The position numbers and the translations under genes are program-made. Below are positions 8,967-54,967 of a stretch of DNA of 64,000 nucleotides, in pieces. The notes beneath the pieces are model-generated. The model did no database searches. It saw only the letters and a program-made list of their open reading frames with translations, and was not told the origin of the DNA. The stretch is taken from the NCBI GenBank assembly GCA_944320235.1, contig CALUGQ010000010.1, forward strand, positions 2,040 to 66,039. Reading direction: 5' to 3'. The stretch is from an uncultured Prevotella sp. (GTDB lineage Bacteria; Bacteroidota; Bacteroidia; Bacteroidales; Bacteroidaceae). Position 1 is the first letter of the stretch; every line of letters starts with the position of its first letter.

Positions 8967-9012
8967 GCCGCAATCCCCATTGTGTAAAACAAAATTCCCG
9001 CCCGCGCCGCCG

Positions 9013-33164: not shown

Positions 33165-33177
33165 ACGCAATTCGCCA

Positions 33178-36645: not shown

Positions 36646-36658
36646 ACGCAATTCGCCA

Positions 36659-38449
36659 ATGAAGAGATTATCCATAATATTCTTCTCTTTACTAATGGGC
36701 ATAGTTTCCCGCGCAGAGGACTTCCCCCTCGTGCGGGAAACCATCGCCATGGAGCTGCAGATACGGCAGAAACCCGGCACCGAGCCATTGCTGAAAGACT
36801 ACCTCAGCAGCATAAGCGCGCCCAACGACACGGTGTACGCCATACTCTACGAGCCTACTTTCTGCCCACGCTGCGAAATAGACATAAAGCCATACAGCAA
36901 GATGCTGAGTGAGCTTGCGCCGCAAAGCCCGTTCGTGCTGATTACCGCTTACCCCGACTCGGCGAGGGCCGCGGCCTACAACAAGGAGAAAGGATACGCC
37001 GCCGACGGCTACATATACGACACGGACGAGGCGTTCATGCGCATCTTCAGCTTCAACACAAACGGCCTCTCCGGCCTGTACATCCTGAAGATGTGCAAAT
37101 CCACGGGCGAACTCCTCGTAGGGGCAAACAGCTTCTACACAAGCATGGAATACACAAAAGAGCTTACTGGCTGGACGGAACGGATGGAACAGCACAACTT
37201 CGCGCAGGCCTCCGGCGCTGCTGGCGGCGAACCATGGCAGCTGCCACGCCCGGCGTGCGAGCCGCTCACCGGCCCATTCACCGACCATGGGCTGAAGCTC
37301 GACGGGCAGATGCTGTCTGACGTGTATGACGTACCCAAGTTTGACTGGCCGTACTTCTTCTACAACGACAAGCTGAACAACTGCGTGATGCTCTTCAAGG
37401 AGGACGGCGGCTCACTGCGCTTCTCCGCACGCATAGAGGCCGACAGCACCGAACGCGACCATTTCATAGAGCTGAGCGATGACTGGAAACGGCTCCTCGA
37501 CAAGTCGAGCCTGTGCTACATACCGCTGGCGGCGACGATGACGGACAGCCAACGGATAGGGGTGTCGTACTCACTGCCCCACGTCATGGAAGACACCATA
37601 GCCAAGAACGGCGGCCTGGCTTTCTTCAACGCACCCGCAATCGTCATTCGCGACGCGGGGACGCTGGCCAAGTCGCCGATGTACTGCCCCGACTTCATGC
37701 TCTTCAAGGACACCACCTACTTCTATGCCCACTTCAACTTCTGCGTGTTCAAGGGCGAGGTGATCTACAGTTGCCAGAAAATGACATGGCCGATGATGTA
37801 TGAGCGGTGGGAATACGAGCACAACCCGGTGATGAACCCTTTCTCCGAGAAGTTCTACAGCAGCGGCAACCCGTGGCTGGCGGCGTTCAGCCTCAGGACG
37901 GGCAAGCTGGTGGAGCGCTTCGCCGAGCTTGAGCCGTGCGCCGAGGCCAGCCGCACCGGCTATTGGTTCGTCAACCCGGTGATGTACAGCAACGGCGACG
38001 AACTTCTGTATTCCGACGGGTTCTCAGGCGCTATCCACATCACTCGCGACATCCACAAGGGCGCAGCCGAGAGCTACTCTGCATTTGCCGTGGACACGGC
38101 GGCGTTCCCGCAGCCCGACACGGCCATGTTCTACCGCCAAGAATACACCAAGGCTTACGACCGCTTTTATTACCGCTGCATAACGGCGGCGAGCATGGAC
38201 GCCGGCAAGGTGACCTGCATCGTGAGGTATGCCCGCAACGACATGGCCAACCCTACAGCCGAGGCGAACGACCACACCGTGGTGACCATCGACCGCCGCA
38301 CGGGCCTCGCCACAGAAAGGCTGATACCACGCTACCAGGGAATGCGCCCCATGGGCTACGGACTGCTCACTGCCAACGGGAGGGTAAGCCCATTCGGCTT
38401 CTACCGACGCGCCGACGGCAGCTATGTGGTGCGCGTGTGGGATGCATGA
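36659..38449 (+). CDS. Exported CPRC-motif protein, copy B
   Basis: Paralog of 33178-34962 (LYEPTFCPRCE; shared WEYEHNP, FPQPDTAMFYR); ATG 36659. Confidence 0.8.
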   Translation: MKRLSIIFFSLLMGIVSRAEDFPLVRETIAMELQIRQKPGTEPLLKDYLSSISAPNDTVYAILYEPTFCPRCEIDIKPYSKMLSELAPQSPFVLITAYPDSARAAAYNKEKGYAADGYIYDTDEAFMRIFSFNTNGLSGLYILKMCKSTGELLVGANSFYTSMEYTKELTGWTERMEQHNFAQASGAAGGEPWQLPRPACEPLTGPFTDHGLKLDGQMLSDVYDVPKFDWPYFFYNDKLNNCVMLFKEDGGSLRFSARIEADSTERDHFIELSDDWKRLLDKSSLCYIPLAATMTDSQRIGVSYSLPHVMEDTIAKNGGLAFFNAPAIVIRDAGTLAKSPMYCPDFMLFKDTTYFYAHFNFCVFKGEVIYSCQKMTWPMMYERWEYEHNPVMNPFSEKFYSSGNPWLAAFSLRTGKLVERFAELEPCAEASRTGYWFVNPVMYSNGDELLYSDGFSGAIHITRDIHKGAAESYSAFAVDTAAFPQPDTAMFYRQEYTKAYDRFYYRCITAASMDAGKVTCIVRYARNDMANPTAEANDHTVVTIDRRTGLATERLIPRYQGMRPMGYGLLTANGRVSPFGFYRRADGSYVVRVWDA

Positions 38450-42228: not shown

Positions 42229-43392
42229 ATGAAGCGAGTACTATCAGTCATCACGCTCCTGCTCTGCATCACCACAATGGCGGGCCAAGAGCAAAAGTAC
42301 GGCCAACTGTACGTGGCCGACCACCTTACGCGCGACTCCATCAAGCTGGAGGCAGTGGAACATACCCCCGAAGCCAAGGGAAACGCCGCCATCATGGTGC
42401 CCAACGGCGACACACTGCGGCTGGCGGGCATGGACGGCGAGGCCGCCATAGTGGAATACCAGGGCAAGCGATACAAGACCTACGGCAGTTTCATGCGCTT
42501 CGTGAGCGACAACGAGGCGGGCGACGGCAACGTGGCCCAGGACGAGTACGACGCGCGCTACCACTCGGTGATGGGCGACTTCTTCTACAGCCCCGTGCCG
42601 CTTGTCATCATCTTTGTGCTCCTTGCGGTGGCCGGGGTGGCCATGCTGATGGTGAGGCGGGCCGACACCATGGGCAAGGCCCTGCCATCGCTCGCCACGC
42701 TGATGGGGTCGCTGCTGGTGGCGTGCATAGTGGAGGCCATGTTCCTTGTATATACCGACGACATCACCTGGTGGTGCGACTCCGATAGCTTCTGGGCTTC
42801 ACTATTCTCGCTGCTGCCCGCCATGCTCGCCCTGGCCGTGCAGCTGTACGTAGGCATAGGCATAAAGAAAAAGCTGGAAGAGCTTACTGGCAGCTCGCTG
42901 TCGCTGAAGACGGCCTTCCTGAGCATCCCGCTGGCACTGGTGCTTACCTTCATCGTGGCCATAATGCACTACGGCGACTTCGTGCAAGGAACGGTGTTCC
43001 TTGCCACGATGGCAGTGTGCGCCCTCTATTCGTGGTACAAGAACGGCCGCGGGCTGGGCGTGGCCTCGGGCCTGGCCTACACCTTGTTCAACTTCGTATA
43101 TGCCCTCGGGGCGATCATCGCCGTGGCTGTGCTGCTTATCCTGATATGGAACATGTTCATGATCGTGCTGCCCTACCTGCTTATGGCCGCAGCGGCGATA
43201 GTGGCCTACGCATTCTTGTCGAGCAGCTCGAGCAGCTCGGGCAGCAGTGGCGGTGGCGGCTACGGCAACAATGGCGACCAGTGGACAAACATCGACGGCC
43301 ACTGGGGAACGAAACACGCCGACGGCTCGTTCACCACCGGCGGCACAACCTACAAGCGCGACGGCCTCACGGGCGAGTGGAAAAAGAAATAA
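42229..43392 (+). CDS. Hypothetical membrane protein (exported N-terminal domain, ~7 TM, Ser/Gly-linked C-terminal tail)
   Basis: Signal peptide, SH3-like beta segment, hydrophobic helices. Confidence 0.7.
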   Translation: MKRVLSVITLLLCITTMAGQEQKYGQLYVADHLTRDSIKLEAVEHTPEAKGNAAIMVPNGDTLRLAGMDGEAAIVEYQGKRYKTYGSFMRFVSDNEAGDGNVAQDEYDARYHSVMGDFFYSPVPLVIIFVLLAVAGVAMLMVRRADTMGKALPSLATLMGSLLVACIVEAMFLVYTDDITWWCDSDSFWASLFSLLPAMLALAVQLYVGIGIKKKLEELTGSSLSLKTAFLSIPLALVLTFIVAIMHYGDFVQGTVFLATMAVCALYSWYKNGRGLGVASGLAYTLFNFVYALGAIIAVAVLLILIWNMFMIVLPYLLMAAAAIVAYAFLSSSSSSSGSSGGGGYGNNGDQWTNIDGHWGTKHADGSFTTGGTTYKRDGLTGEWKKK

Positions 43393-44081: not shown

Positions 44082-44255
44082 TCACAACAAGATGCCCACA
44101 GCCGCAACGATCACGGCTATCCCGACAGCCAAGGCCACCGCGCTCCACACGAACAACATCCGGGGCATGGCGCCCACCACGTGGCGCAGGCCTTCATCGC
44201 GCAGTTCCACGCCGCCGCGCCCCTTTCCTCCGTTAGTGTCAACAGTATCGCTCAT
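44082..44255 (-). CDS. 57-aa truncated HlyD-like membrane-fusion N-terminus
   Basis: Manual translation MSDTVDTNGGKGRGGVELRDEGLRHVVGAMPRMLFVWSAVALAVGIAVIVAAVGILL; ATGA overlap with the exporter stop. Confidence 0.6.
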   Translation of the reverse strand: MSDTVDTNGGKGRGGVELRDEGLRHVVGAMPRMLFVWSAVALAVGIAVIVAAVGILL

Positions 44256-46447
44256 AGTTCCAACTGATTCTTGACCAACCTGTAATAAGCCCCGCGCAAG
44301 GCAGCAAGCTCCTCGTGAGTGCCTTGCTCCACGATGCGCCCACGCTCCATCACCACTATGCGGTCGGCGCCGCGCACGGTGCTCAGCCTGTGGGCTATCA
44401 CGAGCACGGTGCGCCCGCGCAGGAATGCACCCAGCCCCTCAACAATGGCCCGCTCGTTGCTTGCGTCGAGCGAATTGGTGGCCTCGTCCATGAAGATGTA
44501 CTCCGGCTCCTTGTAAATGGCCCGCGCTATGAGTATGCGCTGACGCTGGCCCGCGCTCAGGCCCATGCCGTTGCGCCCTACGCGGGTGTCGTACTTAAGC
44601 GGCAAGCGCTCGGCAAACTCGTCCACGCGCGCCATGCGGGCGGCGCGCAGCAGCCGCCCGGCATCCACCTCGCCGTCGCCCACGGCTATGTTGCGGGCTA
44701 TCGACTCGGAGAACACCACCCCGTCCTGCATCACCACGCCAAGGCGGCTGCGCCACCACTGCGGGTCGTAGTCGGCGAGCAGCCGCCCGCCTACGGTTAT
44801 CGCGCCGGCCTCGGGCGCATAGTAGCCCAGCAGCAGCTTCAGCAGCGTGGTCTTGCCGCTGCCGCTCACGCCGACGATGGCCGTGGTCTTGCCCTCGGCG
44901 ATGTCGAGGCTCACGCCGCTGAGCGTGGGGCTGGGGGCGTTGGGGTCGTAGCGGAACGTGACGCCTTGCAGGCTCAAGGTGCGCCCCTTGGTGGCGAAGG
45001 CCGTGAGCGCGCCCTCGCGCCCCTCGCCCTTGGCCTGGTGCACCTCGCCTATGCGCTCAAGGCTCAGCCTTACGTCCTGCAGCGAATATACGAAGCCGAG
45101 CAGGCTCTCCACCGGGGCCGACAGCTGCCCGATGATGTACTGCACGGCCAGCATCTGCCCGAGCGTCAGCCGCCCGTCGATGACGGCCATGGCGGCCAGC
45201 ACCGTCACCACCACGTTCTTCACGCCGTTGATGAGCACGCCGCCGGCCTCCTCGGCCTGCTGCAGCTTGAGGCCCTTCATGCGCACGCCGTAGAGGGCGG
45301 CCTCGGCCTCCTCCCACTCGCGGCGGCGGCGCAGGCGGCAGTCCTGCAGCTTGGCCTCCTGCATGGTGGTGACGAGCTGCCACGTGGTGTCCTGCGCCTC
45401 GGCGGCCTTGCCGAACCGCTCGCGGTCGAGCACGCGGCGGCGCCCGAGGAAAGCCCTTATCCACAGGCCGTAAAGCAGGCTGAAGGCCATGAACACGCCG
45501 AACACCACTGCATCGTAGGCCAGCAACACGAAGCCGAACACGCAAAACGTGGCGGCGGAGAACAGCACCGTGAGCGCACCGCCGGTGAGAAACTGCTCCA
45601 CGCGGTCGTGGTCGCCCATGCGCTGCATTATGTCGCCGGTGTGCTTGGTGTCGAAGAAAGCCATGGGCAGGGTGAAGAGCTTACAGAGGAAGTCGGAGAC
45701 GATGGCCAGGTTGACCCTCATGCTCACGTGGAGCAGCAGCCAGCGGCGCACGAAGTCGATGGCCGTGGAGCTGAGCGTGAGCATGAGCTGCCCGGCAAGC
45801 ACGAGCCATACGAAGCCTATGTCGCGCTGGGCGATGCCGCGGTCGACTATGGCCTGGGTGAGCAGCGGCAGCAGCAGCTGCAGGGCGCTGCCCACGGCCA
45901 GCCCCGCCGCCACGTGGGCCAGGGCGCGGCGGTGGCGCCCCATGTAGCCCAGCAGGAAGCGCAGCGAGCGCGGCCCGGGGGCGCGCCCGGCTCCTGCGTC
46001 GGGCCTGAAGCCTGCCGACGGCTCCAAGAGCAAGGCTATGCCCTTGTCCTCGCCGCCGGAGCACGCGCTGAGCCAGCACTCCTCCATCTCGCCGCGCCCG
46101 CACACCACCAGCCCCCTGGCGGGGTCGGCAAGGCAGTAGCGCGCCCGGCTGCCGCTGCCCTTTATGCGGTAAAGCACCACGAAGTGCTGCTGCCGCCAAT
46201 GGAGGATGGCGGGCAGCGGCACCTTGCCAAGGGCATCAAGCGAAAGGCGGCCAGCCACCGTGTGAAGCCCATAGGCTTCGGCTGCGCGGCTCAGCCCCAG
46301 CAGCGACGCCCCCTCGGCCGTGGGAGGGCAAAGGGCCTCCACCTCGGCCATGGCGCACCGCCGCCCATAGTGCTCAAGCACCATGCGGAGACAGGCCACG
46401 CCGCACTGCATGGCATCGTGCTGGAGATATAGCGGGAAGCGGTTCAT
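44252..46447 (-). CDS. C39 peptidase-containing ABC transporter (PCAT)
   Basis: QHDAMQCG catalytic Cys, HWRQQHFVV, TMD, GVSGSGKT, LSAGQ, MDEAT. Confidence 0.95.
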   Translation of the reverse strand: MNRFPLYLQHDAMQCGVACLRMVLEHYGRRCAMAEVEALCPPTAEGASLLGLSRAAEAYGLHTVAGRLSLDALGKVPLPAILHWRQQHFVVLYRIKGSGSRARYCLADPARGLVVCGRGEMEECWLSACSGGEDKGIALLLEPSAGFRPDAGAGRAPGPRSLRFLLGYMGRHRRALAHVAAGLAVGSALQLLLPLLTQAIVDRGIAQRDIGFVWLVLAGQLMLTLSSTAIDFVRRWLLLHVSMRVNLAIVSDFLCKLFTLPMAFFDTKHTGDIMQRMGDHDRVEQFLTGGALTVLFSAATFCVFGFVLLAYDAVVFGVFMAFSLLYGLWIRAFLGRRRVLDRERFGKAAEAQDTTWQLVTTMQEAKLQDCRLRRRREWEEAEAALYGVRMKGLKLQQAEEAGGVLINGVKNVVVTVLAAMAVIDGRLTLGQMLAVQYIIGQLSAPVESLLGFVYSLQDVRLSLERIGEVHQAKGEGREGALTAFATKGRTLSLQGVTFRYDPNAPSPTLSGVSLDIAEGKTTAIVGVSGSGKTTLLKLLLGYYAPEAGAITVGGRLLADYDPQWWRSRLGVVMQDGVVFSESIARNIAVGDGEVDAGRLLRAARMARVDEFAERLPLKYDTRVGRNGMGLSAGQRQRILIARAIYKEPEYIFMDEATNSLDASNERAIVEGLGAFLRGRTVLVIAHRLSTVRGADRIVVMERGRIVEQGTHEELAALRGAYYRLVKNQLEL

Positions 46448-46456
46448 GTGATATCA

Positions 46457-46599
46457 GGAGTTAAGGAGTTAGGGAGTCAGGGAGTTAAGGAGTTAAGACG
46501 CATGCAAGAGACCCCGCCACAGCGCGCTGCCCTTTTACCTTTTTACTTTTTTACCTTTTTACTTTTTTACCTTTTTACTTTTTTACCTTTTTACTTTTA
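46457..46599. repeat. Simple sequence repeats: ggagttaa-type 8-mer x5 and cctttttactttttta 16-mer x3.5
   Basis: Read directly at 46457-46496 and 46538-46593. Confidence 0.9.
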
Positions 46600-46601
46600 T
46601 G

Positions 46602-48698
46602 TCATAGTCGCATTATTCCAGACGAGCCTTTCTCCACGTTGAGCTTCTCGCGCTCCACTTTCTTGCGGCCGAAGTCGAAGCTGTAAGACAGGCTGACGTA
46701 AGCCTTCCGCCCGTTGAGAGAGGTGGTGGTGCTGTTGTCAAACCTGTAAACGCCGTGGTCGGCCCAAGTGCGCAAGGCATAGTTGCCATCAAAGAAGAGC
46801 TGGCCGCCCACGGCCACGTGGAGCCCCTTGTGGTGCCAGGCCAGCTCCGCGATGTAGAATTGCGGAATCTCTTGATAGTAGCCGCCCCACTCGAGGCTGC
46901 GCCGCTTGGTGACATACTGCGCCATGATGCTGAAGTTCTTAATGTAGTAGTTGCCTGTAAGGGCGAACAGCCAGCGGCCCGAGTTGCAGGAGTTTAGCCC
47001 GGTGATGCGCTGCCCCCTATACTGCAGCGTGGGCGAGAGCTGCAGCGAGCGCTTGAATAGGAACAGCGAGGCCGACACCCCGGCGAGATAGGTGATGTGC
47101 TTGCCGTCGGAAATGTAAGTGCTCACCAGCGTTCCGCCCTCGTCCATATAGTAAGGCTTCGTGTAGTCGGTGTATATCGTGGAACTGCCATATACCGAGA
47201 TGTTGGCGTTCTTTAGCGAAAGGTTGTACGAGGCGTTCACGAAATGCACCTTGGTGATGTCCAAGTGGGGGTTGCCCCGCTGCACGGTGTACTGGTTTAC
47301 GCGCTGTTCCGTGCTGTTGTAGTTGTACATCTGCGGCACGTTGCTCGCCATGTGCCAATATGCATACAGCGAGCTGCGCCCGTTTATCTTGTAGTTGATG
47401 GTGGCCCCGGGGCGCGGCAGCAGCTTGCTTAAGGTGCCTATGCCCTTCACCCTGTACAAATCCCAGTATAGGCCAAAGCGGGCAGAAAGCGTAAGCCGCT
47501 TGCCAAAGGTGTGCGAATAGCTGGGGTCAAAGAGCACCACGCCGTCGTCAATCCCCTGGTCGGCAGCCATGGTGCCTGCGTATGTGGTGCGGTTGCTGCT
47601 GAATCTCCCAAACAGCATCGCCCCTATGGCATTGCCGTGCTTCAGGTCGGCGTTATATACGAGCATGGCGTCGGCACGGTATTGCTTTTCCTTCGAGTCA
47701 GTGACCACGGTGGGCAGCGAGCCTTCGGTGTAAGTGCGGCTGTAGGTGTTGTCGGCATACCAGCCGCTGGCCGAAGCCCGAAGCCGATGACCCTTGGCCA
47801 CCTCCGTCTCAAGGAAGAAGTTCATCGACGGGGTGGCGTTGCGACTGTGATTGTCGGTCACAGCTTCCGACGAGGGATAGGCCTGCGGCGTGTAGCTCAC
47901 CATGGTGCTTTGGTGGCTCTCGGGCATCTCGCTCCAGTTAAAGCCGAGGTCGAGAATGGCGGTGGTCTTTTCCGTGCGGTACTTGGTGCGCAGCAGGCCG
48001 TAGTGGTTTTGCGTCTTTGTCAACAGGCCGAGGGCAGTCTCCTTCTTGGTGAACGGCGTGGCAAAGCCCACGTATTCAGTGCCGCTGGTGCCGGGCGTAT
48101 CCTCCTTTGTGAAGCCGGTGCCTGCGTAGAGGGTGAAGTTGAATTTGTTCACGTCGAGGCTCGCCTGCAGTGAATAGTCGCCGTAGTCGAGCCATGGGTA
48201 GGCAAGGGTGCTTGTGCGCATGTCTACGTAGCCGCCGCGGTCGTACTTGCGCGTGATGAAGTTGAGCACGGTCTGCTCGCTAGGAAAGGCGGGCGACGGG
48301 CGGTCGTAGTACTCCACCCGCACTATGTCCTTGGGCCTCAGCCTGTCGGCCTCCGTGACGTCGGCCTTGCGGTTGTCTATGTATATGGAGGGAGCTGTGC
48401 CGTCGGCGTTCTTCACGGTCTTGCCTATGTGGTCCACCAGCAGCTTTGGTATCATCATGCGCGCCAGCAAGCTTATGCCCGAGGCCGAGGCGTCAGCCTG
48501 CCGCTTGGTGGGCATGTAGTTGGTGTGGTCGTCCTTTTGTATGGCCATGCGCCCCTCTACGGTGACGCCCCCGAGGTCTACTTGGCGAAATATGCTGTCC
48601 TGCCCCGCCGCCTGCGCCGTGCTGTCTGCCGCGGCGGCACGGGCCTCAACGCCGAAGAACGCCAGCAATGCAACAATTGTTAAGCAAAAACCCTTCAT
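46602..48698 (-). CDS. Outer-membrane beta-barrel protein (plug plus barrel), paralog 2
   Basis: Signal peptide, LRPKDIVRVEYYDRP plug motif, C-terminal SLSYSFDFGRK; start MKGFCL at 48698. Confidence 0.8.
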   Translation of the reverse strand: MKGFCLTIVALLAFFGVEARAAAADSTAQAAGQDSIFRQVDLGGVTVEGRMAIQKDDHTNYMPTKRQADASASGISLLARMMIPKLLVDHIGKTVKNADGTAPSIYIDNRKADVTEADRLRPKDIVRVEYYDRPSPAFPSEQTVLNFITRKYDRGGYVDMRTSTLAYPWLDYGDYSLQASLDVNKFNFTLYAGTGFTKEDTPGTSGTEYVGFATPFTKKETALGLLTKTQNHYGLLRTKYRTEKTTAILDLGFNWSEMPESHQSTMVSYTPQAYPSSEAVTDNHSRNATPSMNFFLETEVAKGHRLRASASGWYADNTYSRTYTEGSLPTVVTDSKEKQYRADAMLVYNADLKHGNAIGAMLFGRFSSNRTTYAGTMAADQGIDDGVVLFDPSYSHTFGKRLTLSARFGLYWDLYRVKGIGTLSKLLPRPGATINYKINGRSSLYAYWHMASNVPQMYNYNSTEQRVNQYTVQRGNPHLDITKVHFVNASYNLSLKNANISVYGSSTIYTDYTKPYYMDEGGTLVSTYISDGKHITYLAGVSASLFLFKRSLQLSPTLQYRGQRITGLNSCNSGRWLFALTGNYYIKNFSIMAQYVTKRRSLEWGGYYQEIPQFYIAELAWHHKGLHVAVGGQLFFDGNYALRTWADHGVYRFDNSTTTSLNGRKAYVSLSYSFDFGRKKVEREKLNVEKGSSGIMRL

Positions 48699-48723
48699 AG
48701 GCAACAATTTTATGTTATATATG

Positions 48724-48731
48724 CAAAGATA
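48724..48731 (-). promoter_or_regulatory. -7 promoter element TATCTTTG upstream of barrel 2
   Basis: Reverse complement of caaagata matches TAnnTTTG. Confidence 0.5.
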
Positions 48732-48926
48732 GTGAAAATCACGCAAACAAGAAAAAAAAAAAGACATTTCGCATATAATCATGTCAAAAAATTCTCGATA
48801 TGCAAGAAAATGCCTCACTTTGCTTGCTTTGACTTATAATACATATACAGCATATCAAACAATGCATCTTCGTTGTCTTTATATATGCTGCACAGTTCGT
48901 AATATTCTGTTAAATATGAATCTCTC

Positions 48927-48959
48927 AAAAATGAAGAAGCACTTAAAGCACTTCTTCAT
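48927..48959 (-). terminator. Intrinsic terminator after the precursor gene
   Basis: Minus-strand RNA AUGAAGAAGUGC-UUUAA-GUGCUUCUUCAU-UUUU. Confidence 0.7.
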
Positions 48960-48986
48960 TTCTGAAATAGCATTTGGTTCACAATG

Positions 48987-49160
48987 TCAGCACTTTGCGT
49001 TTGTACCTACACAGCCGCCACAAACACTGTTGCAACCACACATATTGTGAGTCTCTTGGCATCCGCTATTAGTTCCCAAGCCACCAAGGACTGCGAGGGA
49101 TTCCCCATCGCTCAGACGCTGAATGATGCTCAGCTCGTTAAGTCTTTTCTTAATTTCCAT
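48987..49160 (-). CDS. RiPP precursor peptide, double-glycine leader and six-Cys core
   Basis: MEIKKRLNELSIIQRLSDGESLAVLGG|LGTNSGCQETHNMCGCNSVCGGCVGTNAKC*; A-rich translation initiation region, 27 nt after the upstream stop. Confidence 0.9.
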   Translation of the reverse strand: MEIKKRLNELSIIQRLSDGESLAVLGGLGTNSGCQETHNMCGCNSVCGGCVGTNAKC

Positions 49161-49187
49161 AATTGTTGTTTTTTAAAAGATTAAACA

Positions 49188-51257
49188 TTAATCAGTGCCG
49201 CTAGTAAGGAGGGCACTGTTTATCTTACGGTCAATTTCTTCGTTTACCCTCTCGGTCTTGCGGCCAAAATCAAACGTGTATCGCAGCGAGATGGACACAA
49301 AGCGGCTTTGGCTCCTGTCGAATGTGCTTGTGTCTGCCCAATATGCATCCGTATCGGTGACACGATGGACACGCCGCTTAGCAAACGGGCAGCCCAAATA
49401 CAACTGCGCAAAAAATCCCTTGTGGCTGTAGGAGCAACTGAAGTCGTAATCAATAGGCTCTGCCACGATGGCTGTATTCTGGAAATCAATGTATTTCCGT
49501 CGAGAGGTGACATTGGCCGCCAGCATAAAGTCGCCAAGATAGTACAATACACCTGCAAAGCCCACATAGTGGGTGTGAGACATTGACGTGGAACCACGCA
49601 ACGACGTATACGACACGGCACCATTGCATGTCACTTGCAACTTGTCAGTAAGGCGGTAAGACACGCTCCCCCAAAACGAAACTTCATTCATCTCAATGTC
49701 ATTGGCATACGTTTTCAGCACCCGCGAGCCATCTTCCACAAGCCCATAGCTGTTGAGCACGAGGTTGTGGCCATAGTAATATTGCGGGTTAGCCATGACG
49801 CTGAGCTTGCCGAAACTCTGGCTGTAATATATATTAGAGTTAACGTTGCTCACACGGCGCAGGCTGCCCGTTCCCCTCATGGTCATGTAGGGTGATATTT
49901 CCACCTGCGCATTGTTAAACACGTTCATACCGTAAGTGGGGTTGGAATAGAAAGCCTGCCACGACAGCAGGCCATCATGCAGGCGCAACTGCATGGCCAC
50001 ATTGAGCCGCGGGGTAAGCTGGCTGAACTTGCGGCTGCCGTGCAATCGCAACTGCATCCAGTCAAGGCCCGTGCGCAGGCGCAGTGAGAGATTGCGCCCG
50101 AATTTCCGCGTATAAGATGCGAGAGCCAGCGACTCGCCTTTCCACAAGTGCTGCCACAAAGGGTTGTCGCCTGTGTAAGAAGAAATCCAAATGTCGTGAT
50201 AGTGTATCGCCATAGCCGTGAAAGCGTTCTTGCCCTTGGCGTATGAGTACGTCAAATCGGCCATGAAGCTGTAAGCATCCTCCTCGGCATGGGTGGCTGA
50301 TGCAAAAGCAGCCTCAGTGTAGTTGCGGTCGTAGCTGTTGCGCGAATATGAGCCATTTACTGTATAATTGAGCGTGTGGCATTCCGCCAAGCTCACTTGG
50401 CCGGAGAAGTCTATCTTAGGCGACAAGCCCTGCCTGGAAGTCGCCGACGCGAACTCAGAAAGCGAGCTGCCATCGCGCAGCCACCCTTCCTCAGCATCCG
50501 CCGGCGTGCTCTTGTTGTAAAGCGTCAGCTTGCCCACCCAATATGACTTATCCCTTTTGTTCTGCACCCTAAGCTGCACATACTCATCGTTATTGCGAAG
50601 CGACTGCGCGGCGTTGCTCTCACGCAACACATTGCCGGCAGGCAACTTGTAAAGCTCGGCGCCTGCGGCCTCGCTGCCACCAACGTTCTTGTAAGACGCG
50701 CCTGCAAACAATGAGTAAGTCACGCTGCCGCTGCTCATTGTGGCTGCCGCGGAGTAATAGCCCGAGCTGAAACCAACAATCTGCTCTGCTGATGCGGAAA
50801 CATAACCACCATAACGATACTGGCGCATCACGAAGTTTATGGCGAACTTGTCGTTGGCATACTTGCCGTCGGGCATATCCATGTACTCTATGCGCAATAT
50901 GTCCTGTGGGCGCATCATGCTCACCTCGTTGATGTCGCAAGGCTGCCCGTTGACATATATGGTGGCCTCAACGTTCATCAAGCTAACCTTTCCGGCCTTT
51001 TCGTCTACCTGCAAGCCGGGCAGCATAAGGTTGCGCAGCACTCCAAAGCCATTGGCGGCATGCTTGCGCTGGTCTGCATTGGGGAAAATCCACATGCTGC
51101 CGTCTTGCTTCCGCTGCATATTTGAGCCGGTGACAGTGACCTCGCGCACTGCAAGGTGCGCGTCAACGGAATCACGAGTCACGCTATCGGCTCTCTCTGC
51201 CAACAGACCAAGGGTGCTGACAAAGCATAGCAACAAAACGGAAGCAATTCTCAGCAT
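49188..51257 (-). CDS. Outer-membrane beta-barrel protein (plug plus barrel), paralog 1
   Basis: Signal peptide, MRPQDILRIEYMDMP plug motif, C-terminal ISLRYTFDFGRK. Confidence 0.8.
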   Translation of the reverse strand: MLRIASVLLLCFVSTLGLLAERADSVTRDSVDAHLAVREVTVTGSNMQRKQDGSMWIFPNADQRKHAANGFGVLRNLMLPGLQVDEKAGKVSLMNVEATIYVNGQPCDINEVSMMRPQDILRIEYMDMPDGKYANDKFAINFVMRQYRYGGYVSASAEQIVGFSSGYYSAAATMSSGSVTYSLFAGASYKNVGGSEAAGAELYKLPAGNVLRESNAAQSLRNNDEYVQLRVQNKRDKSYWVGKLTLYNKSTPADAEEGWLRDGSSLSEFASATSRQGLSPKIDFSGQVSLAECHTLNYTVNGSYSRNSYDRNYTEAAFASATHAEEDAYSFMADLTYSYAKGKNAFTAMAIHYHDIWISSYTGDNPLWQHLWKGESLALASYTRKFGRNLSLRLRTGLDWMQLRLHGSRKFSQLTPRLNVAMQLRLHDGLLSWQAFYSNPTYGMNVFNNAQVEISPYMTMRGTGSLRRVSNVNSNIYYSQSFGKLSVMANPQYYYGHNLVLNSYGLVEDGSRVLKTYANDIEMNEVSFWGSVSYRLTDKLQVTCNGAVSYTSLRGSTSMSHTHYVGFAGVLYYLGDFMLAANVTSRRKYIDFQNTAIVAEPIDYDFSCSYSHKGFFAQLYLGCPFAKRRVHRVTDTDAYWADTSTFDRSQSRFVSISLRYTFDFGRKTERVNEEIDRKINSALLTSGTD

Positions 51258-51322
51258 ATATTACTTGAATTTAAACTAAATTCATCCCGCTGGAAGCCAA
51301 CAGCAAAGGCAAGCTACGGGAA

Positions 51323-52642
51323 TCAGCCATTCAACAATTTTCTCCTGCAAGCCTCACTTATCACAAATTCATCAACAGTAGACTGGGAGTTTTCGACCAC
51401 ACAGGGCATAGGGTTGCCTGTGTCGCGAGCCTCCTTGCACTTTGCGATGCATGGCCCCATGCATATAGGCAACAGTTTACAAGCCAGGCACCGTTCGTTG
51501 TCAAACGTTGGGTGGGAAAACAAACTTGAGCGAAGCTTGTCACTCCATTCAATGTGGCCATCCTGCCCCAACCGCCCCAAGACCTTGTCATCGGCATAAT
51601 CCTGCGCCGTACACTTAAATACCCTCCCGTCGTAGTTAATGACATAATGATGCAGCCTGTCTGCATAACACCTGTGGAACATCCTTGGAGTAAACGCCCA
51701 AAAGTCCACACAAAAGCCATTGTCGGCAAACGCCTTGCGCACCATGCGCAAGCGTTCCAAATCTTCCTCATTGCACTTTATCTGCCACACCTTTTGGAAA
51801 TCGACCGTCATGTGACGCTTGGCGTTCTCCGTAAAAAGGGGTATTATATCCTCTATGCCGCGCAATGTTCTCTTGTCAAAGTTTATCCTCAATATTATAT
51901 GAGCATCCGGGATTATCTCCGGCAGCATATTGATGTTGCCAACTATTGCCTTGAACGTGCCGCCCTTGTCTGCGTTTTTCTTGATGACATTGTGATGGCG
52001 CTCATTGCCGTCGAGCGGTATCTGGAAGCTCGTGAAATGCAGCTCGGCCATTCTTTGCATCATCTTTTCGGTCATGAAAACAGAGTTGGTAGTCACGTGC
52101 TGAGTGAATCCTATGCCATGCTCCCGCACAAGTTCGTTGGCAACGGAGGATATCGGGGCAACAATTTCATCGAAATACATCAATGGCTCACCACCAAACC
52201 AGTCCAAATGCAAGGCCGTTATGCGCTTCTTTTCCACCAAGTATGCCATGTGCGATTTCACCGCCTTGACAATTTCTGGCGACATGCAGCCTTCATGCTG
52301 TGCCTTGGCGTATTCCGTGGAGCAATACCAGCACCGCAGGTTGCAGTCGAGCGTTGGGTTTATGGTTACGTGATAGCGTTGGTCTTCATAAACCACCTTG
52401 TTGTTCTGAAGCCTTATGTAATCAAGCTCATTGAAATCGCCATCGACTATGAAACCACTTTTCTTGAAGTTATCATAAAGAGACGGATAATCATGCCCAA
52501 AGCCTTCAAGGTTGTCTGCATAAGCCGACAAAATGGAGTATTCGTCTGCCGTTAGGCACACGAGAGAGTTCGTCAGTGTGTTATACACTAACTTATACGC
52601 CCCATGCGGCACAACGATATTATAGTAACTTAATTTATCCAT
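51323..52642 (-). CDS. Radical SAM/SPASM peptide maturase
   Basis: CNLRCWYC, WFGGEPL, SPASM Cys HRCYAD..FKCTA..CLACKLLPICMGPC. Confidence 0.92.
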   Translation of the reverse strand: MDKLSYYNIVVPHGAYKLVYNTLTNSLVCLTADEYSILSAYADNLEGFGHDYPSLYDNFKKSGFIVDGDFNELDYIRLQNNKVVYEDQRYHVTINPTLDCNLRCWYCSTEYAKAQHEGCMSPEIVKAVKSHMAYLVEKKRITALHLDWFGGEPLMYFDEIVAPISSVANELVREHGIGFTQHVTTNSVFMTEKMMQRMAELHFTSFQIPLDGNERHHNVIKKNADKGGTFKAIVGNINMLPEIIPDAHIILRINFDKRTLRGIEDIIPLFTENAKRHMTVDFQKVWQIKCNEEDLERLRMVRKAFADNGFCVDFWAFTPRMFHRCYADRLHHYVINYDGRVFKCTAQDYADDKVLGRLGQDGHIEWSDKLRSSLFSHPTFDNERCLACKLLPICMGPCIAKCKEARDTGNPMPCVVENSQSTVDEFVISEACRRKLLNG

Positions 52643-52687
52643 AATGACATTTATATTTTACCCGTATCTTAATTAAACAGCCTTACC

Positions 52688-53065
52688 CTACCTGCCTATC
52701 TCAACAGTATCGGCCAGGCGCGGCACTCCCTCGGTCTCCACAACCACGGTGCACTGAGCGGCATCTGTTCCGGCAAAGGTATATCCTATCACGGTACTAC
52801 GGTCGGCCGTCTCCTTGTCGTCAACCACGAGCTTGCCGTCCTTGATTATCTTCACACGAATGTCATCTGACTGACGGTTGAAAGCTATGGAAATGGTGCG
52901 GCTGCCATCTTCGTGGAACACCTCCACCGGGTTTGTGCCGACATTCCAATTGGGCTTGAAACCTATATCCTTTGACTTTGTAACCTCATCGCTTGCCTGC
53001 GTTGGCGAACAAAGGAACTGCATAAATAGCAATGCAGCAACTATAAAAAACCTGCTTCTTTTCAT
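52688..53065 (-). CDS. Small secreted DUF3244-like protein
   Basis: Signal peptide, beta-rich ~100-aa body; divergent from a TPR regulator. Confidence 0.6.
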   Translation of the reverse strand: MKRSRFFIVAALLFMQFLCSPTQASDEVTKSKDIGFKPNWNVGTNPVEVFHEDGSRTISIAFNRQSDDIRVKIIKDGKLVVDDKETADRSTVIGYTFAGTDAAQCTVVVETEGVPRLADTVEIGR

Positions 53066-53090
53066 AATAAATTCAATTGATTCGTGCTAG

Positions 53091-53121
53091 CAAAATTATA
53101 ATTTAAAATCAATGCGGCAAA
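53091..53121 (-). promoter_or_regulatory. Promoter of the RiPP operon
   Basis: Minus strand TTTG (53121-53118), 19-nt spacer, TAATTTTG (53098-53091). Confidence 0.7.
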
Positions 53122-53249
53122 ATTTTCTGATGAAAAATTAATTTTGCCTGTGACGTTTCAGAAAACTTGAAAATCCCCATAAACAAAGGGATTTAAACGA
53201 TTTTCAGCCCCAAAACACGCTTAAAACTTTCACACTGAGCGTCATCGAA

Positions 53250-53281
53250 TTTGGCCATTTCGGATGAAATTCATATTTTTG
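53250..53281 (+). promoter_or_regulatory. Promoter of the divergent TPR regulator
   Basis: TTTG 53250-53253, 20-nt spacer, TATTTTTG 53274-53281. Confidence 0.65.
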
Positions 53282-53308
53282 CAGCGGTTAATCTAAGTCA
53301 TTACTGAT

Positions 53309-54967
53309 ATGAACAAGAAAGCAAAAGGCATAAACTGGTGGCAGAAAAAATACATCATAATGACATTTTCAGCCATTGCCATCGTATGCATCGCATTGTG
53401 TTTATACCGCAACAATGAGACAACTGAGGCTAACATTACCCAAATTGACACCCTACTGGCACATGGCAAGGCTGACTCTGCATACCAAGCCTTACCAAAG
53501 GTGATAAAAGGGGGTATTCAAAGTGAAAGCGAGCAGGCTTATTACAATTTACTTAAGGCTGAGATAATGTTCAGAAAAAGCATTGCCCCGCCAGAATACA
53601 CTGGCATAAACCAAAGCATCAGTTTTTATGGCAAGGCAAAAGATTACCGTAAACTCGCAAGGGCATACTACGTAAAAGGGAGAATTGCAGACCTGAACGG
53701 AAATGTAAAAGAATGCGTAAAGTGCATGGCAATGGCGGAAAGTATGGCCTCCAAGACTAACGATAACCTTCTTAAATGTAGAATATACATAACCCTCACT
53801 GCAACATGCTTAAATGGAGGAGAAAGTCAGCTCGCGCTTGAAAATGGGAGGAAAGCAATATACTTCGGTGAGAAATCGGGAAACAAAGAAATGCTATTAT
53901 ACTGTTATAGCAACTTATCTTCAATACACTCAAGACTCAACAACCCAGACAGCTCCTTATTCTACGCAAACAAGAGCCTCCCCTTGATTAGGTACATATC
54001 AGACGGCAGCAAAATATATGCATTAACCAACATCGGGGCTGCCTACGAATTCCGCGACCCTGCCAAGGCGAAGGCTTACGCAAGGAAAGCCCTGGAGATA
54101 AAGCCTTATGCCAACGCATACCACCTGCTCGGTGCCATTGCATACAGGGAGGGGCGCACCGAAGATGGCAAGGCCCTGCTCTGGCGTGGCATAGAGGTGA
54201 GCACCGAACTAATGCGCACCATAAGCATGACGGAAGACCTGGCCGAGTGCGAGCAAAAGGAGGGGAACAGCGGCGAAGCGGCACGGCTACTGAAGATGGC
54301 CACGGCCATGCGCGACAGCCTGGCGCGCAAGAACACGGCAGACAGCATAGCCGGGGTGATGGCGGCGCACGAGCTGCTGCAAACCGAACAGGCCGCAAAA
54401 GCAGAGCGCTGTCTCTTTAATATAATTATATCAGCATTGGCCGCAGCTGCCGTGATAGGACTGTTGGCTGTTGTGGTTTACTTAAGCCTGTCGAAAAAAA
54501 GCCTGCGGCAGGCTAAGGAGAAGGCCGAGGAAAGCGAACGGGAGCTGAGTGCACTAAAGGAGAAGCTCGCAGCACTAAGGGCCACGGGCAAGAAAGAAGC
54601 CGACGCACATCAAAAGGAATTGCGCAAGATGGAGGCTCAGCACAAAAAAGCCGTGGAAGCTCTGAACAAGGCCACGGAGGAGACCATGGCCAACGGCCAC
54701 CGCCTGTACGGGCAGGTGGCGCGCGGAGAGAGCATAGCACAGTGGAAGAAAAGGGAGATGGCTTGGTTTGCCGAATACTACATGGCTATAAACAAGGAGT
54801 TCGGACACATGATAGAAAACGGCTACACGGGGCTTTCATACAGGCAGACTACGTTTCTCATACTTGAACACTTGGGCAAGACGCAAGAGGAAACCATGGA
54901 GATGATGAACATTAGCTACGACAACTACCGCAAGATGCGCTCGGTGATAAACACGAAGAAAATTTAG
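53309..54967 (+). CDS. TPR-repeat membrane sensor/regulator with C-terminal HTH-like domain
   Basis: N-terminal TM anchor, TPR helices, second TM, coiled coil, LSYRQTTFLILEHLGKTQEETMEMMNIS tail. Confidence 0.75.
   Translation: MNKKAKGINWWQKKYIIMTFSAIAIVCIALCLYRNNETTEANITQIDTLLAHGKADSAYQALPKVIKGGIQSESEQAYYNLLKAEIMFRKSIAPPEYTGINQSISFYGKAKDYRKLARAYYVKGRIADLNGNVKECVKCMAMAESMASKTNDNLLKCRIYITLTATCLNGGESQLALENGRKAIYFGEKSGNKEMLLYCYSNLSSIHSRLNNPDSSLFYANKSLPLIRYISDGSKIYALTNIGAAYEFRDPAKAKAYARKALEIKPYANAYHLLGAIAYREGRTEDGKALLWRGIEVSTELMRTISMTEDLAECEQKEGNSGEAARLLKMATAMRDSLARKNTADSIAGVMAAHELLQTEQAAKAERCLFNIIISALAAAAVIGLLAVVVYLSLSKKSLRQAKEKAEESERELSALKEKLAALRATGKKEADAHQKELRKMEAQHKKAVEALNKATEETMANGHRLYGQVARGESIAQWKKREMAWFAEYYMAINKEFGHMIENGYTGLSYRQTTFLILEHLGKTQEETMEMMNISYDNYRKMRSVINTKKI

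What the first reader, a model, noticed from the sequence alone, without database searches (positions are those of the whole stretch)
44082..54967. Complete candidate RiPP biosynthetic cluster: rSAM/SPASM, GG precursor, two OM barrels, PCAT and regulator
Seen, on the minus strand: DUF3244-like gene, radical SAM/SPASM, barrel 1, precursor, terminator, barrel 2, C39 ABC exporter, mini-HlyD; a TPR regulator is divergent. Established: PCATs cleave after double-Gly leaders, and SPASM enzymes crosslink peptides. Inference: a probably undescribed Cys-rich modified peptide (bacteriocin, signal or metallophore) from a Prevotella-like host, placed just beyond the rplQ terminator.
Basis: partly seen in the sequence, partly recalled or inferred. 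Interest (0 to 1): 0.9.

Follow-up and report, generated by a model that had tools for sequence, protein, structure and literature searches.

The report
Prevotella radical-SAM modified-peptide gene cluster
This is a real, intact gene cluster in a gut Prevotella-like bacterium that makes, probably cross-links and secretes a small cysteine-rich peptide; clusters of this layout have been listed in surveys but none has been studied experimentally, and this one gives a testable prediction of its chemistry.

Summary
On the minus strand lie a small secreted beta-sandwich protein, a radical SAM/SPASM enzyme, a barrel, a 57-aa GG-leader precursor with a 6-Cys core, a strong hairpin, a second barrel, a C39 ABC exporter (PCAT) and a 57-aa HlyD N-terminal fragment. 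A divergent TPR membrane protein completes the set.

Corrections:
- Both barrels are TonB-dependent-transporter (TBDT) folds.
- Barrel 2 starts at 48698.
- "DUF3244-like" is only a remote similarity.
- No DNA-binding domain was detected in the TPR protein.

The rSAM belongs to a large Bacteroidota family (159 species loci) that no curated model covers. GG-leader, Cys-rich small ORFs lie next to most homologues.

In the window's subclade, 17 of 34 core Cys sit in NxxC motifs (3.5 expected). This suggests Cys-Asn thioether rings like those made by streptococcal NxxcB.

Across loci, the TBDT-like barrel and a truncated HlyD adaptor go together, while full-length adaptors occur only without a barrel. 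This hints that the barrel replaces the adaptor/TolC route.

The cluster is a patchy, mosaic cassette at a fixed site between rplQ and gdh. The layout (precursor, rSAM, TonB receptor, PCAT) is already noted as uncharacterised in the literature. I class it as a new member of a known but unstudied kind, of moderate interest.

The parts
44082..44255 (-). small57: a 57-aa 'mini-HlyD', i.e. the cytoplasmic N-terminus plus one TM helix of a bacteriocin-type membrane fusion protein, with no periplasmic domain
   Evidence: ATGA overlap with the PCAT stop. The motif ELRDEGLRHVVGAMP plus a TM helix at 40-56. BLASTP to residues 8-42 of the 432-aa L023 protein, which carries Pfam HlyD_3, gives E 0.003. 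Kept as a 49-73 aa ORF in many relatives.
44252..46447 (-). PCAT: C39 peptidase-containing ABC exporter (731 aa)
   Evidence: Pfam Peptidase_C39 95 bits, ABC_membrane 81, ABC_tran 109. Motifs holding the C39 Cys, His and Asp, Walker A and the signature motif are present. It is the only C39 ABC transporter in the genome.
46602..48698 (-). barrel 2: TBDT-like outer-membrane protein (698 aa from M at 48698), paralogue of barrel 1
   Evidence: Pfam OMP_b-brl_3 37 bits, above the cut-off of 27. 25% identity to barrel 1 over its full length. Signal-peptide start MKGFCLTIVALLAFFGVEARA. Relatives are 698 aa.
48724..48731 (-). TATCTTTG, a Bacteroidetes-type -7 box (TAnnTTTG) upstream of barrel 2; candidate second promoter
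   Evidence: Read from the sequence. The consensus is from my own knowledge. Function is not tested.
48923..48967 (-). strong hairpin directly after the precursor stop; terminator, attenuator or RNA-stabilising stem
   Evidence: Terminator scan. Fold -27 kcal/mol, z = -4.95, 0 of 200 shuffles as stable; conserved in L016.
48987..49160 (-). precursor peptide: 27-aa GG leader plus 30-aa core with 6 Cys and three NxxC motifs (N4-C7, N17-C20, N27-C30)
   Evidence: The leader is conserved in relatives while cores vary.
49188..51257 (-). barrel 1: TBDT-like outer-membrane protein (689 aa) with a plug-like N-terminal domain and a TonB-box-like motif (REVTVTG)
   Evidence: AF2 model pLDDT 83.4, pTM 0.74. 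Foldseek against PDB gives only TonB-dependent transporters at the top (ChuA E 1e-17, OprC, Cir, FecA, BtuB, XusA). Conserved N-terminal LxEVxVxA in alignment A2.
51323..52642 (-). radical SAM/SPASM peptide maturase (439 aa); the only tailoring enzyme in the cluster
   Evidence: The closest solved structure is CteB, 5wgg, E 3e-12. It has 596 homologues in the large database and 159 species loci.
52688..53065 (-). p125: small secreted or lipoprotein-like all-beta protein, first gene of the operon
   Evidence: N-terminal hydrophobic segment with Cys19. AF2 pLDDT 71, eight strands. Generic Ig-like matches, with the DUF3244 structure 3sd2 at TMt 0.62. BLASTP E 0.001 to a true DUF3244 protein at the same position in the genome's second cluster.
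53091..53121 (-). TTTG-N19-TAATTTTG: Bacteroidetes-type promoter upstream of p125
   Evidence: Read from the sequence. The consensus is from my own knowledge. Function is not tested.
53309..54967 (+). divergent TPR membrane protein (552 aa); predicted periplasmic TPR region between two TM helices, then a cytoplasmic coiled coil and an ~80-aa C-terminal domain; putative regulator
   Evidence: Pfam TPR_12 45.8 bits. TM helices at 15-33 and 372-390 with a positive-inside pattern. No DNA-binding domain detected. Kept next to the cluster in L004 and L016; TPR proteins stand in the same place in L087, L096 and L097, and a paralogue in the second cluster on C2.

Best explanation
This is a functional radical-SAM RiPP locus built from two transcription units.

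- Unit 1 runs from a TTTG-N19-TAATTTTG promoter through p125, the rSAM/SPASM enzyme, barrel 1 and the precursor, and ends at a strong hairpin.
- Unit 2 holds barrel 2, the PCAT and the mini-HlyD.

The proposed steps are:
1. The rSAM/SPASM enzyme binds the conserved leader and installs intramolecular cross-links on the Cys-rich core. The most likely cross-links are thioethers from Cys sulfur to the Asn three residues upstream, at the three NxxC motifs (inferred).
2. The C39 domain of the PCAT cuts after Gly-Gly27 and the transporter moves the 30-aa product across the inner membrane (established for PCATs in general).
3. The adaptor is reduced to a 57-aa membrane anchor, and the genome has no full-length bacteriocin-type adaptor. 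The peptide is therefore probably released into the periplasm rather than channelled through TolC.
4. The outer-membrane step is then handled by the TonB-dependent-transporter-like barrels. I lean towards export, with barrel 2, the PCAT and the mini-HlyD acting as a trio. Re-uptake, perhaps through barrel 1 and feeding the periplasmic TPR domain of the divergent membrane protein, is nearly as likely.

The biological role is most likely strain-level competition or signalling among Prevotella. The reason is that the maturase, precursor and barrel cassette is hypervariable next to a conserved exporter.

Sub-probabilities:
- Real RiPP cluster with a PCAT-processed, rSAM-modified peptide: about 0.85.
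- Thioether chemistry: about 0.6.
- Specifically the NxxC Cys-Asn link: about 0.4.
- Barrels act in export: about 0.4.
For: Shown:
- Domain content and intact catalytic motifs.
- The same gene set is conserved in relatives.
- GG-leader Cys-rich ORFs lie next to rSAM homologues in at least 71 of 94 loci.
- NxxC is enriched: 17 motifs for 34 Cys against 3.5 expected (P < 2e-5). Without the window and L016 it is still 11 against 2.3. In the first test, on five cores, no other offset was enriched.
- NxxcB makes a Cys-Asn beta-thioether in an NxxC motif (PMC9389541).
- The nearest families with known chemistry are thioether formers: CteB in PDB at E 3e-12, and PapB at 96 bits and the SCIFF maturase at 66 bits in NCBIfam.
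- Barrel 1 has a TBDT fold.
- All 12 loci with a full-length adaptor (about 435-443 aa) lack a barrel. About 22 of 24 loci with a truncated adaptor (about 50-170 aa) carry a 700-800 aa TBDT-like ORF, usually directly next to the PCAT.
- L098 has rSAM, PCAT, a full adaptor and a TolC-like OEP, and no adjacent barrel.
- The genome holds no full-length bacteriocin-type adaptor.
- A TBDT (Oar) is required for secretion of PopC (PMC6434023).
- Mosaic conservation against L016/L087: PCAT 95/83% identity, rSAM 88/60%, barrel 2 85/51%, and the precursor 76% against L016 and 54% against L087, with the differences mostly in the core.
- Patchy distribution: only 3 of 36 same-genus genomes have even a ~30% homologue.
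Against:
- rSAM orthology to NxxcB was not tested.
- The S. copri-type sister cores lack NxxC and instead carry CLAGCGC...ACxxCQA. The family chemistry may therefore not depend on Asn.
- Three Cys of the window core (C14, C16, C23) lie outside NxxC motifs.
- The canonical direction of TBDTs is import.
- The barrel/adaptor association rests on only 4 phylogenetically independent contrasts (sign test p = 0.125).
- Pfam Plug and TonB_dep_Rec models do not hit the window's barrels.
- No DNA-binding domain was detected in the TPR protein.
- No immunity gene was recognised.
Confidence: 0.55

Rival explanations
1. The barrels are importers, which is the canonical TBDT role. The exported peptide, or its metal complex, is taken back into the periplasm. 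There it either acts as an autoinducer sensed by the periplasmic TPR domain of the divergent membrane protein, or delivers a metal as a metallophore does.
For: - TBDT fold with a conserved TonB-box-like motif and a plug.
- The TPR region is predicted to be periplasmic.
- The TPR protein is the least conserved large protein against L016 at 74%, as would be expected for a receptor that diverges along with its ligand.
- The core is Cys-rich.
- OprC (copper) and siderophore receptors are among the structural matches.
- No inner-membrane importer is encoded, which fits sensing in the periplasm.
Against: - It does not explain why the adaptor is truncated exactly where a barrel is present and full-length where it is absent. 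Export through TolC would still be needed.
- Structural matches to metal transporters are at fold level only.
- No Fur/Zur-type regulator or metal-related gene is in the cluster.
Confidence: 0.3
2. The rSAM installs a different modification: sactionine (Cys to C-alpha) or Cys to another acceptor. In that case the NxxC motifs are structural, for example Asn turns or disulfide spacing, rather than cross-link sites.
For: - Sister-clade cores, with rSAMs 53-58% identical, have no NxxC enrichment.
- The best NCBIfam matches (Clo7bot, TIGR04463, CefB) are Cys-rich-peptide maturases whose chemistry is, to my knowledge, not established.
- Other SPASM enzymes make C-C or ether links.
Against: The NxxC enrichment is strong, specific to the -3 offset, and holds in independent members. 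There is a direct precedent for Asn as acceptor in NxxC (PMC9389541).
Confidence: 0.3
3. The cluster is a decaying remnant. The truncated HlyD shows that export is broken and no product is made.
For: - The adaptor is only 57 aa and no full-length copy exists in the 92%-complete genome.
- GC3 differs sharply between the two halves of the cluster.
Against: - All eight ORFs are intact with catalytic motifs.
- The mini-adaptor is kept as an intact ORF in about 20 loci of different species, and the ATGA overlap with the PCAT stop is kept in the three loci checked.
- The promoter-like site and the hairpin are present, and the hairpin is kept in L016.
Confidence: 0.05

Closest known systems
Uncharacterised Parabacteroides distasonis RaS-RiPP cluster (Fig. 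6 of PMC9389541) and the Bacteroidales rSAM clusters with PCAT + OMP but no detected adaptor (PMC10352776)
   Same: Both have a precursor, a radical SAM enzyme, a TonB-dependent receptor and a peptidase-domain ABC transporter. The precursor has a GG leader. The hosts are gut Bacteroidales. Neither has an established product or function.
   Different: Here there are two TBDT paralogues, a TPR membrane protein instead of a two-component system, a beta-sandwich protein, and no nucleotidyltransferases. The 'missing' adaptor is shown here to survive as a 57-aa anchor. Sequence relatedness to those published clusters was not tested.
NxxcA/NxxcB RaS-RiPP of streptococci (beta-thioether Cys-Asn in an NxxC motif; PMC9389541)
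   Same: An rSAM/SPASM enzyme acts on a precursor whose core carries NxxC. The motif is statistically enriched in this subclade.
   Different: The host here is Gram-negative, the core carries three motifs plus extra Cys, and processing is by GG leader and PCAT rather than the streptococcal quorum-sensing-linked (Rgg/SHP) setting. Homology of the enzyme to NxxcB was not tested, and the chemistry is only predicted.
Ranthipeptide/sactipeptide maturases CteB (SCIFF), PapB, RumMC
   Same: They share the radical SAM core plus a SPASM domain with two auxiliary-cluster Cys motifs, and they act on Cys-rich substrates. CteB is the closest solved structure.
   Different: Scores are far below every family cut-off: PapB 96/340, SCIFF 66/425, RumMC 44/720. 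The substrate motifs differ.
NCBIfam TIGR04334 (Clo7bot), TIGR04463 (rSAM_vs_C_rich), NF038107 (CefB)
   Same: These are the best full-length matches at about 150 bits, and all are maturases of Cys-rich peptides.
   Different: Cut-offs are 525-600 bits, so this enzyme is not a member. The S. copri and Bacteroides stercorirosoris homologues also fail.
Oar/PopC: TonB-dependent transporter required for protein secretion in Myxococcus (PMC6434023)
   Same: A TBDT-type barrel is implicated in outward transport across the outer membrane.
   Different: Oar exports a protease and is not linked to a PCAT. The role of the barrels here is inferred from gene association only.
Bacteroidetocins and other GG-leader bacteriocin loci with PCAT + HlyD adaptor (+TolC)
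   Same: GG leader, C39 ABC exporter, gut Bacteroidales hosts, strain-variable loci.
   Different: Those peptides are unmodified (per PMC10352776). Here there is an rSAM maturase, a truncated adaptor and TBDT-like barrels.

Membership tests
Radical SAM superfamily | CX3CX2C cluster motif and a Radical_SAM domain | tested here: met
   C100-x3-C104-x2-C107 is invariant in 25 homologues. PF04055 scores 51.7 bits against a cut-off of 29.5.
SPASM subfamily | C-terminal domain with about 7 Cys (Cx9-15Gx4C ... Cx2Cx5Cx3C ... C) for two auxiliary clusters | tested here: met
   TIGR04085 scores 43.1 bits against a cut-off of 27. C325-x13-G339-x4-C344, C385-x2-C388-x5-C394-x3-C398 and C414 are all invariant.
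TIGR04334 Clo7bot / TIGR04463 / NF038107 CefB maturases | Score at or above the curated equivalog cut-off | tested here: not met
   154.9/600, 152.6/525 and 149.4/600 bits.
TIGR04148 GG_samocin_CFB (Bacteroidetes GG-peptide rSAM) with TIGR04149 precursor | Scores at or above the cut-offs for the enzyme and the precursor | tested here: not met
   The enzyme scores 50/300 bits. The precursor has no hit even at E <= 10.
Ranthipeptide/sactipeptide (PapB, CteB/SCIFF, RumMC) | Membership of the enzyme family | tested here: not met
   PapB 95.7/340, SCIFF 65.8/425, RumMC 44.1/720 bits.
Ranthipeptide/sactipeptide (PapB, CteB/SCIFF, RumMC) | Thioether cross-links in the product | not testable with these tools
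   This needs mass spectrometry or NMR of the modified peptide.
NxxC RaS-RiPP (NxxcA/B) | NxxC motif in the core | tested here: met
   There are three NxxC motifs in the window core. Across seven subclade cores there are 17 NxxC for 34 Cys against 3.5 expected.
NxxC RaS-RiPP (NxxcA/B) | Maturase orthologous to NxxcB; Cys-S to Asn-C-beta bond | not tested
   No NxxcB sequence or model was available in the tools used. The chemistry needs an experiment.
PCAT (peptidase-containing ABC transporter) | N-terminal C39 domain with catalytic Cys/His/Asp, six-helix TMD and an NBD | tested here: met
   The three Pfam domains are present. The motifs QCGVACL (14), QQHFVVL (86) and LADPA (106), which hold the Cys, His and Asp, plus Walker A at 526 and the signature at 630, are present. 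Curated subfamily cut-offs are not reached: TIGR01193 325/524, TIGR03796 431/853.
Double-glycine leader peptides | A leader of about 15-30 aa ending in GG with conserved hydrophobic spacing, next to a PCAT | tested here: met
   The leader ends ...LAVLGG at residue 27. Its pattern M(E/K)xKKLNExxIxxRLSDGE...GG is conserved in relatives. No curated leader model hits it.
TonB-dependent transporter | 22-strand barrel with an N-terminal plug and a TonB box | tested here: met
   At fold level, the Foldseek top 50 are all TBDTs, E down to 1e-17, TM about 0.55. A plug-like domain covers residues about 45-145. A conserved LxEVxVxA motif is present. The Pfam Plug and TonB_dep_Rec models do not hit the window's barrels; PF14905 hits barrel 2 only. 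TonB dependence is not testable here.
HlyD-type membrane fusion protein | Periplasmic lipoyl, hairpin and beta-barrel domains | tested here: not met
   small57 stops right after the TM helix. Only the N-terminal motif is shared with full-length HlyD_3 proteins.
DUF3244 (PF11589) | Pfam score at or above 25 bits | tested here: not met
   p125 has no hit at E <= 10, and a positional counterpart in L087 scores 15.1 bits. The fold is a generic beta-sandwich with 3sd2 at TMt 0.62. BLASTP to a true DUF3244 protein gives E 0.001.
Transmembrane TPR transcription regulator | A DNA-binding output domain | tested here: inconclusive
   TPR repeats and two TM helices are found. No Pfam or PDB match exists for the C-terminal 120 aa. 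The LuxR-like pattern is my reading only.

The most novel reading that the evidence does not exclude
In many Bacteroidota RiPP loci, a TonB-dependent-transporter-like barrel, a PCAT and a roughly 50-170-aa remnant of the HlyD adaptor together form a previously undescribed two-membrane peptide export route. This route replaces the classical PCAT/adaptor/TolC tunnel. In this Prevotella subclade the cargo is a peptide stapled by several Asn-Cys thioethers at NxxC motifs, made by an rSAM family not shown here to be related to NxxcB.
Probability: 0.3. Interest if true: 0.8.

Novelty: new member of a known kind. Interest (0 to 1): 0.55.

Why it matters
Prevotella and Segatella are dominant gut bacteria from which, as far as I found, no modified peptide has been characterised. 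This cluster offers three things.

1. **A concrete, cheap chemistry test.** Co-express the 57-aa precursor with one enzyme and look for -2 Da per link at three NxxC sites.
2. **A genetic handle on an open question from genome surveys.** Many Bacteroidales RiPP loci have a PCAT and an outer-membrane protein but 'no' adaptor. Here the adaptor survives as a mini-anchor that tracks the TBDT-like barrel.
3. **An example of a hypervariable peptide cassette next to a conserved exporter at a fixed chromosomal site.** This is the pattern expected for strain-level competition or pherotype signalling.

If the barrels export the peptide, that would extend the rare precedent of TBDT-dependent secretion.

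Tried and rejected
- **No non-coding RNA.** Rfam and tRNA scans of the window found nothing in or near the cluster.
- **PDB by sequence is uninformative for the barrels.** A search with barrel 2 and with a barrel profile gave nothing useful. Only the fold search was informative.
- **No further precursors in the cluster.** Every other GG/Cys small ORF lies inside a coding region in another frame.
- **No decayed adaptor downstream of small57.** tblastn with full-length adaptors found no remnant there or anywhere in the genome.
- **The PCAT/mini-HlyD 'fusion' in L096 is not real.** The 798-aa ORF results from a frameshift in the PCAT tail of that contig.
- **The TPR C-terminus has no Pfam or PDB match**.
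- **Neither the 154-aa adaptor of S. copri nor small57 has a Pfam domain**, so a TonB_C-like idea has no support.
- **One literature search was wasted.** The TIGRFAM and 'CefB' terms returned only noise.
- **The large protein search with the precursor found only 4 called ORFs**. Precursors had to be taken from loci instead.
- **Metallophore reading.** Considered, but no metal-related gene or regulator is present.

Full report
**1. Observation**

ORF listing with Pfam and NCBIfam scans confirms the described gene order on the minus strand.

| Gene | Coordinates | Size / note |
|---|---|---|
| p125 | 52688-53065 (-) | 125 aa |
| rSAM/SPASM | 51323-52642 (-) | 439 aa |
| barrel 1 | 49188-51257 (-) | 689 aa |
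| precursor | 48987-49160 (-) | 57 aa |
| hairpin | 48967-48923 (-) | 21-bp stem |
| barrel 2 | 46602-48698 (-) | 698 aa |
| PCAT | 44252-46447 (-) | 731 aa |
| small57 | 44082-44255 (-) | 57 aa |
| TPR protein | 53309-54967 (+) | 552 aa, divergent |
| rplQ terminator | 55210-55175 (-) | boundary |

- The rSAM has CX3CX2C (C100/104/107) and the full SPASM Cys pattern, invariant in 25 homologues.
- The PCAT has the C39 motifs that hold the catalytic Cys, His and Asp, and the ABC motifs.
- The precursor is MEIKKRLNELSIIQRLSDGESLAVLGG|LGTNSGCQETHNMCGCNSVCGGCVGTNAKC. It is the only credible GG-leader ORF in the cluster.
- The hairpin after it has a 21-bp stem of -27 kcal/mol, z = -4.95. It is conserved in the nearest relative.
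- A TTTG-N19-TAATTTTG promoter-like site precedes p125. A TAtcTTTG box precedes barrel 2. This suggests two transcription units. The promoter consensus is from my own knowledge.

**2.

- **The barrels are TBDT-like.** The two barrels are paralogues, 25% identical over their full length. An AlphaFold model of barrel 1 (pLDDT 83.4, pTM 0.74) matches only TonB-dependent transporters in the PDB, such as ChuA at E 1e-17, OprC, Cir, FecA, BtuB and XusA. It has a plug-like N-terminal domain and a conserved LxEVxVxA TonB-box-like motif.
- **Barrel 2 starts at 48698**, not 48818.
- **p125 is only remotely DUF3244-like.**
  - It has no Pfam hit.
  - It models as a generic beta-sandwich.
  - Its only links to DUF3244 are a BLASTP E of 0.001 to a true DUF3244 protein and the shared gene position.
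- **The TPR protein is a putative regulator only.**
  - It has two TM helices with a positive-inside pattern, which places the TPR region in the periplasm and a coiled coil plus an ~80-aa domain in the cytoplasm.
  - No DNA-binding domain was detected.

**3. small57 is a truncated adaptor**

- It overlaps the PCAT stop (ATGA). That overlap is kept in L087 and L096.
- It carries the motif ELRDEGLRHVVGAMP followed by one TM helix.
- The same motif opens 432-469-aa proteins downstream of PCATs in other loci. One of these, in L023, has Pfam HlyD_3 and Biotin_lipoyl_2.
- tblastn finds no full-length bacteriocin-type adaptor or remnant anywhere in the 92%-complete genome. It finds three TolC-like OEPs and no second C39 ABC transporter.

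**4. The family**

- The rSAM has 596 homologues in the large protein database. It has 159 species-level loci in GTDB genomes, most of them labelled as Bacteroidota: Segatella copri, Prevotella, Paraprevotella, Muribaculaceae, Bacteroides, Parabacteroides, Riemerella and Bergeyella.
- No NCBIfam equivalog is reached by the window's enzyme. The best are Clo7bot at 155/600, TIGR04463 at 153/525 and CefB at 149/600. The S. copri and B. stercorirosoris homologues also fail.
- The closest solved structure is the thioether-forming CteB.
- GG-leader, Cys-containing small ORFs lie within 3 kb of the rSAM in at least 71 of 94 loci. Most of the rest are contig-limited or had candidates under a looser filter.
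- No curated precursor model matches.

**5. Chemistry lead**

An earlier first-reader note pointed to NxxC motifs, and I tested this.

- I used seven precursors whose rSAMs are at least 60% identical to the window's: the window, L016, L087, L096, L097, L100 and L102.
- Their leaders are nearly the same and their cores are hypervariable.
- There are 17 NxxC motifs for 34 Cys, where shuffling gives 3.5 (P < 2e-5).
- Without the window and L016 the count is still 11 against 2.3.
- In the first test, on five of these cores, no other offset was enriched.
- The sister S. copri-type cores instead share CLAGCGC...ACxxCQA and show no NxxC enrichment.
- Streptococcal NxxcB makes a Cys-S to Asn-C-beta thioether in exactly such a motif (PMC9389541).
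- I therefore predict three 4-residue thioether rings (N4-C7, N17-C20, N27-C30). This is inference only, and enzyme orthology to NxxcB was not tested.

**6. Barrel and adaptor go together**

- All 12 loci with a full-length adaptor lack any barrel.
- About 22 of 24 loci with a truncated adaptor (about 50-170 aa) carry a 700-800-aa TBDT-like ORF. Pfam finds OMP_b-brl_3, Plug or TonB_dep_Rec in L046, L050 and L085. The ORF usually lies directly next to the PCAT.
- L098 (rSAM 59% identical) has PCAT, a full adaptor and a TolC-like OEP, and no adjacent barrel.
- On the rSAM tree the window sits in a well-supported clade of 15 rSAMs. All have barrels except one on a 4-kb contig.
- Only four phylogenetically independent contrasts exist. 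All go the same way, but the sign test gives p = 0.125. The association is suggestive, not proven.
- It favours the barrel replacing the adaptor/TolC route, for which Oar/PopC secretion is a precedent (PMC6434023).
- Canonical import, perhaps feeding the periplasmic TPR domain, remains nearly as likely.

**7. Genomic context**

- The cluster occupies the same site between rplQ and the Gly-zipper/DPBB/gdh genes in the window, L087 and L096. In L016 it likewise adjoins rplQ.
- Conservation is mosaic:

| Protein | Identity to L016 | Identity to L087 |
|---|---|---|
| PCAT | 95% | 83% |
| rSAM | 88% | 60% |
| barrel 2 | 85% | 51% |
| TPR protein | 74% | no match at E 1e-5 |
| precursor | 76% (differences mostly in the core) | 54% |

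- GC3 differs between the halves: 0.81-0.89 for barrel 2 and the PCAT, against 0.48-0.66 for the rest.
- Only 3 of 36 same-genus genomes have even a ~30% rSAM homologue.
- This is the pattern of a swappable cassette next to a fixed exporter. It fits competition or pherotype signalling.

**8. Comparison with what is known**

- Surveys already list rSAM RiPP clusters as abundant in Bacteroidales. They note PCAT plus OMP without a detected adaptor (PMC10352776).
- A review shows an uncharacterised P. distasonis cluster with a precursor, an rSAM enzyme, a TonB-dependent receptor and a PCAT (PMC9389541).
- No experimental work on this family was found.
- Earlier AI notes from this scan describe the same cluster type in other genomes. 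They agree with my results but are not independent evidence.
- Verdict: a real, intact, new member of a catalogued but unstudied cluster type. Two things are added here. The first is the NxxC prediction. The second is the link between the mini-adaptor and the barrel.

Noticed in passing
outside the window: G000 contig C2:113500-127500 (locus L099): The same genome has a second RiPP-like system of parallel design. It runs: TPR membrane protein (L099 2256-3878), true DUF3244 protein (3983-4459), rSAM/SPASM (4832-6175), an 85-aa precursor with five heptad repeats of the GNSGxC type (6200-6457), a CarboxypepD_reg TBDT-like barrel (6525-8837), and a daptide-type HExxH intramembrane protease (8844-10043) in place of a PCAT.
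   Followed up: partly
window 32865-34953 and 36346-38440: Two tandem copies of a pair made of a small secreted protein and a ~590-aa protein. They are 51-63% identical to a pair that sits between rplQ and the RiPP cluster in L087 and L096, there together with a third TBDT-like barrel. In this genome the pair lies on the far side of gdh, so a rearrangement has occurred. A functional link to the cluster is possible but untested.
   Followed up: partly
window 42229-43392 (+): A 387-aa multi-TM protein with a Ser/Gly-rich C-terminal tail and no Pfam hit. It sits between the mini-HlyD and the Gly-zipper gene. It is absent from the same position in L087 and L096, where those two genes are neighbours. 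It could be an insertion or an immunity-type gene.
   Followed up: no
window 44082-54967: There is a sharp compositional break inside the cluster. PCAT GC 0.68 (GC3 0.89) and barrel 2 GC3 0.81 resemble the flanking gdh. The rSAM, barrel 1, precursor, p125 and TPR genes have GC3 of 0.48-0.66. Genome GC is 0.557, and the PCAT's GC lies in the range reached by under 1% of 2-kb genome windows.
   Followed up: partly
L089 9001-11669 and L090: A close rSAM homologue (51% identity) with a GG-leader precursor is followed by an S41 peptidase instead of a barrel and PCAT. L040 and L044 also carry S41 peptidases. This may be an alternative processing route in the family.
   Followed up: no
L098 7854-10474: Directly downstream of an rSAM, PCAT, full adaptor and OEP set lies a YcaO gene followed by a CarboxypepD_reg/OMP_b-brl_3 barrel. 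This is a second, different RiPP-like module that also pairs with a TBDT-like barrel.
   Followed up: no
L096 12601-14997: The PCAT appears fused to the mini-HlyD as a 798-aa ORF. This is a frameshift in the PCAT C-terminus of that metagenome contig, not a true fusion.
   Followed up: yes
L007, L008, L010 (9319-9783 in L007); L050, L059, L061: An intermediate class of adaptor remnants of 154-179 aa keeps about 100 periplasmic residues and has no Pfam hit. In the S. copri loci it stands after the rSAM rather than after the PCAT.
   Followed up: partly
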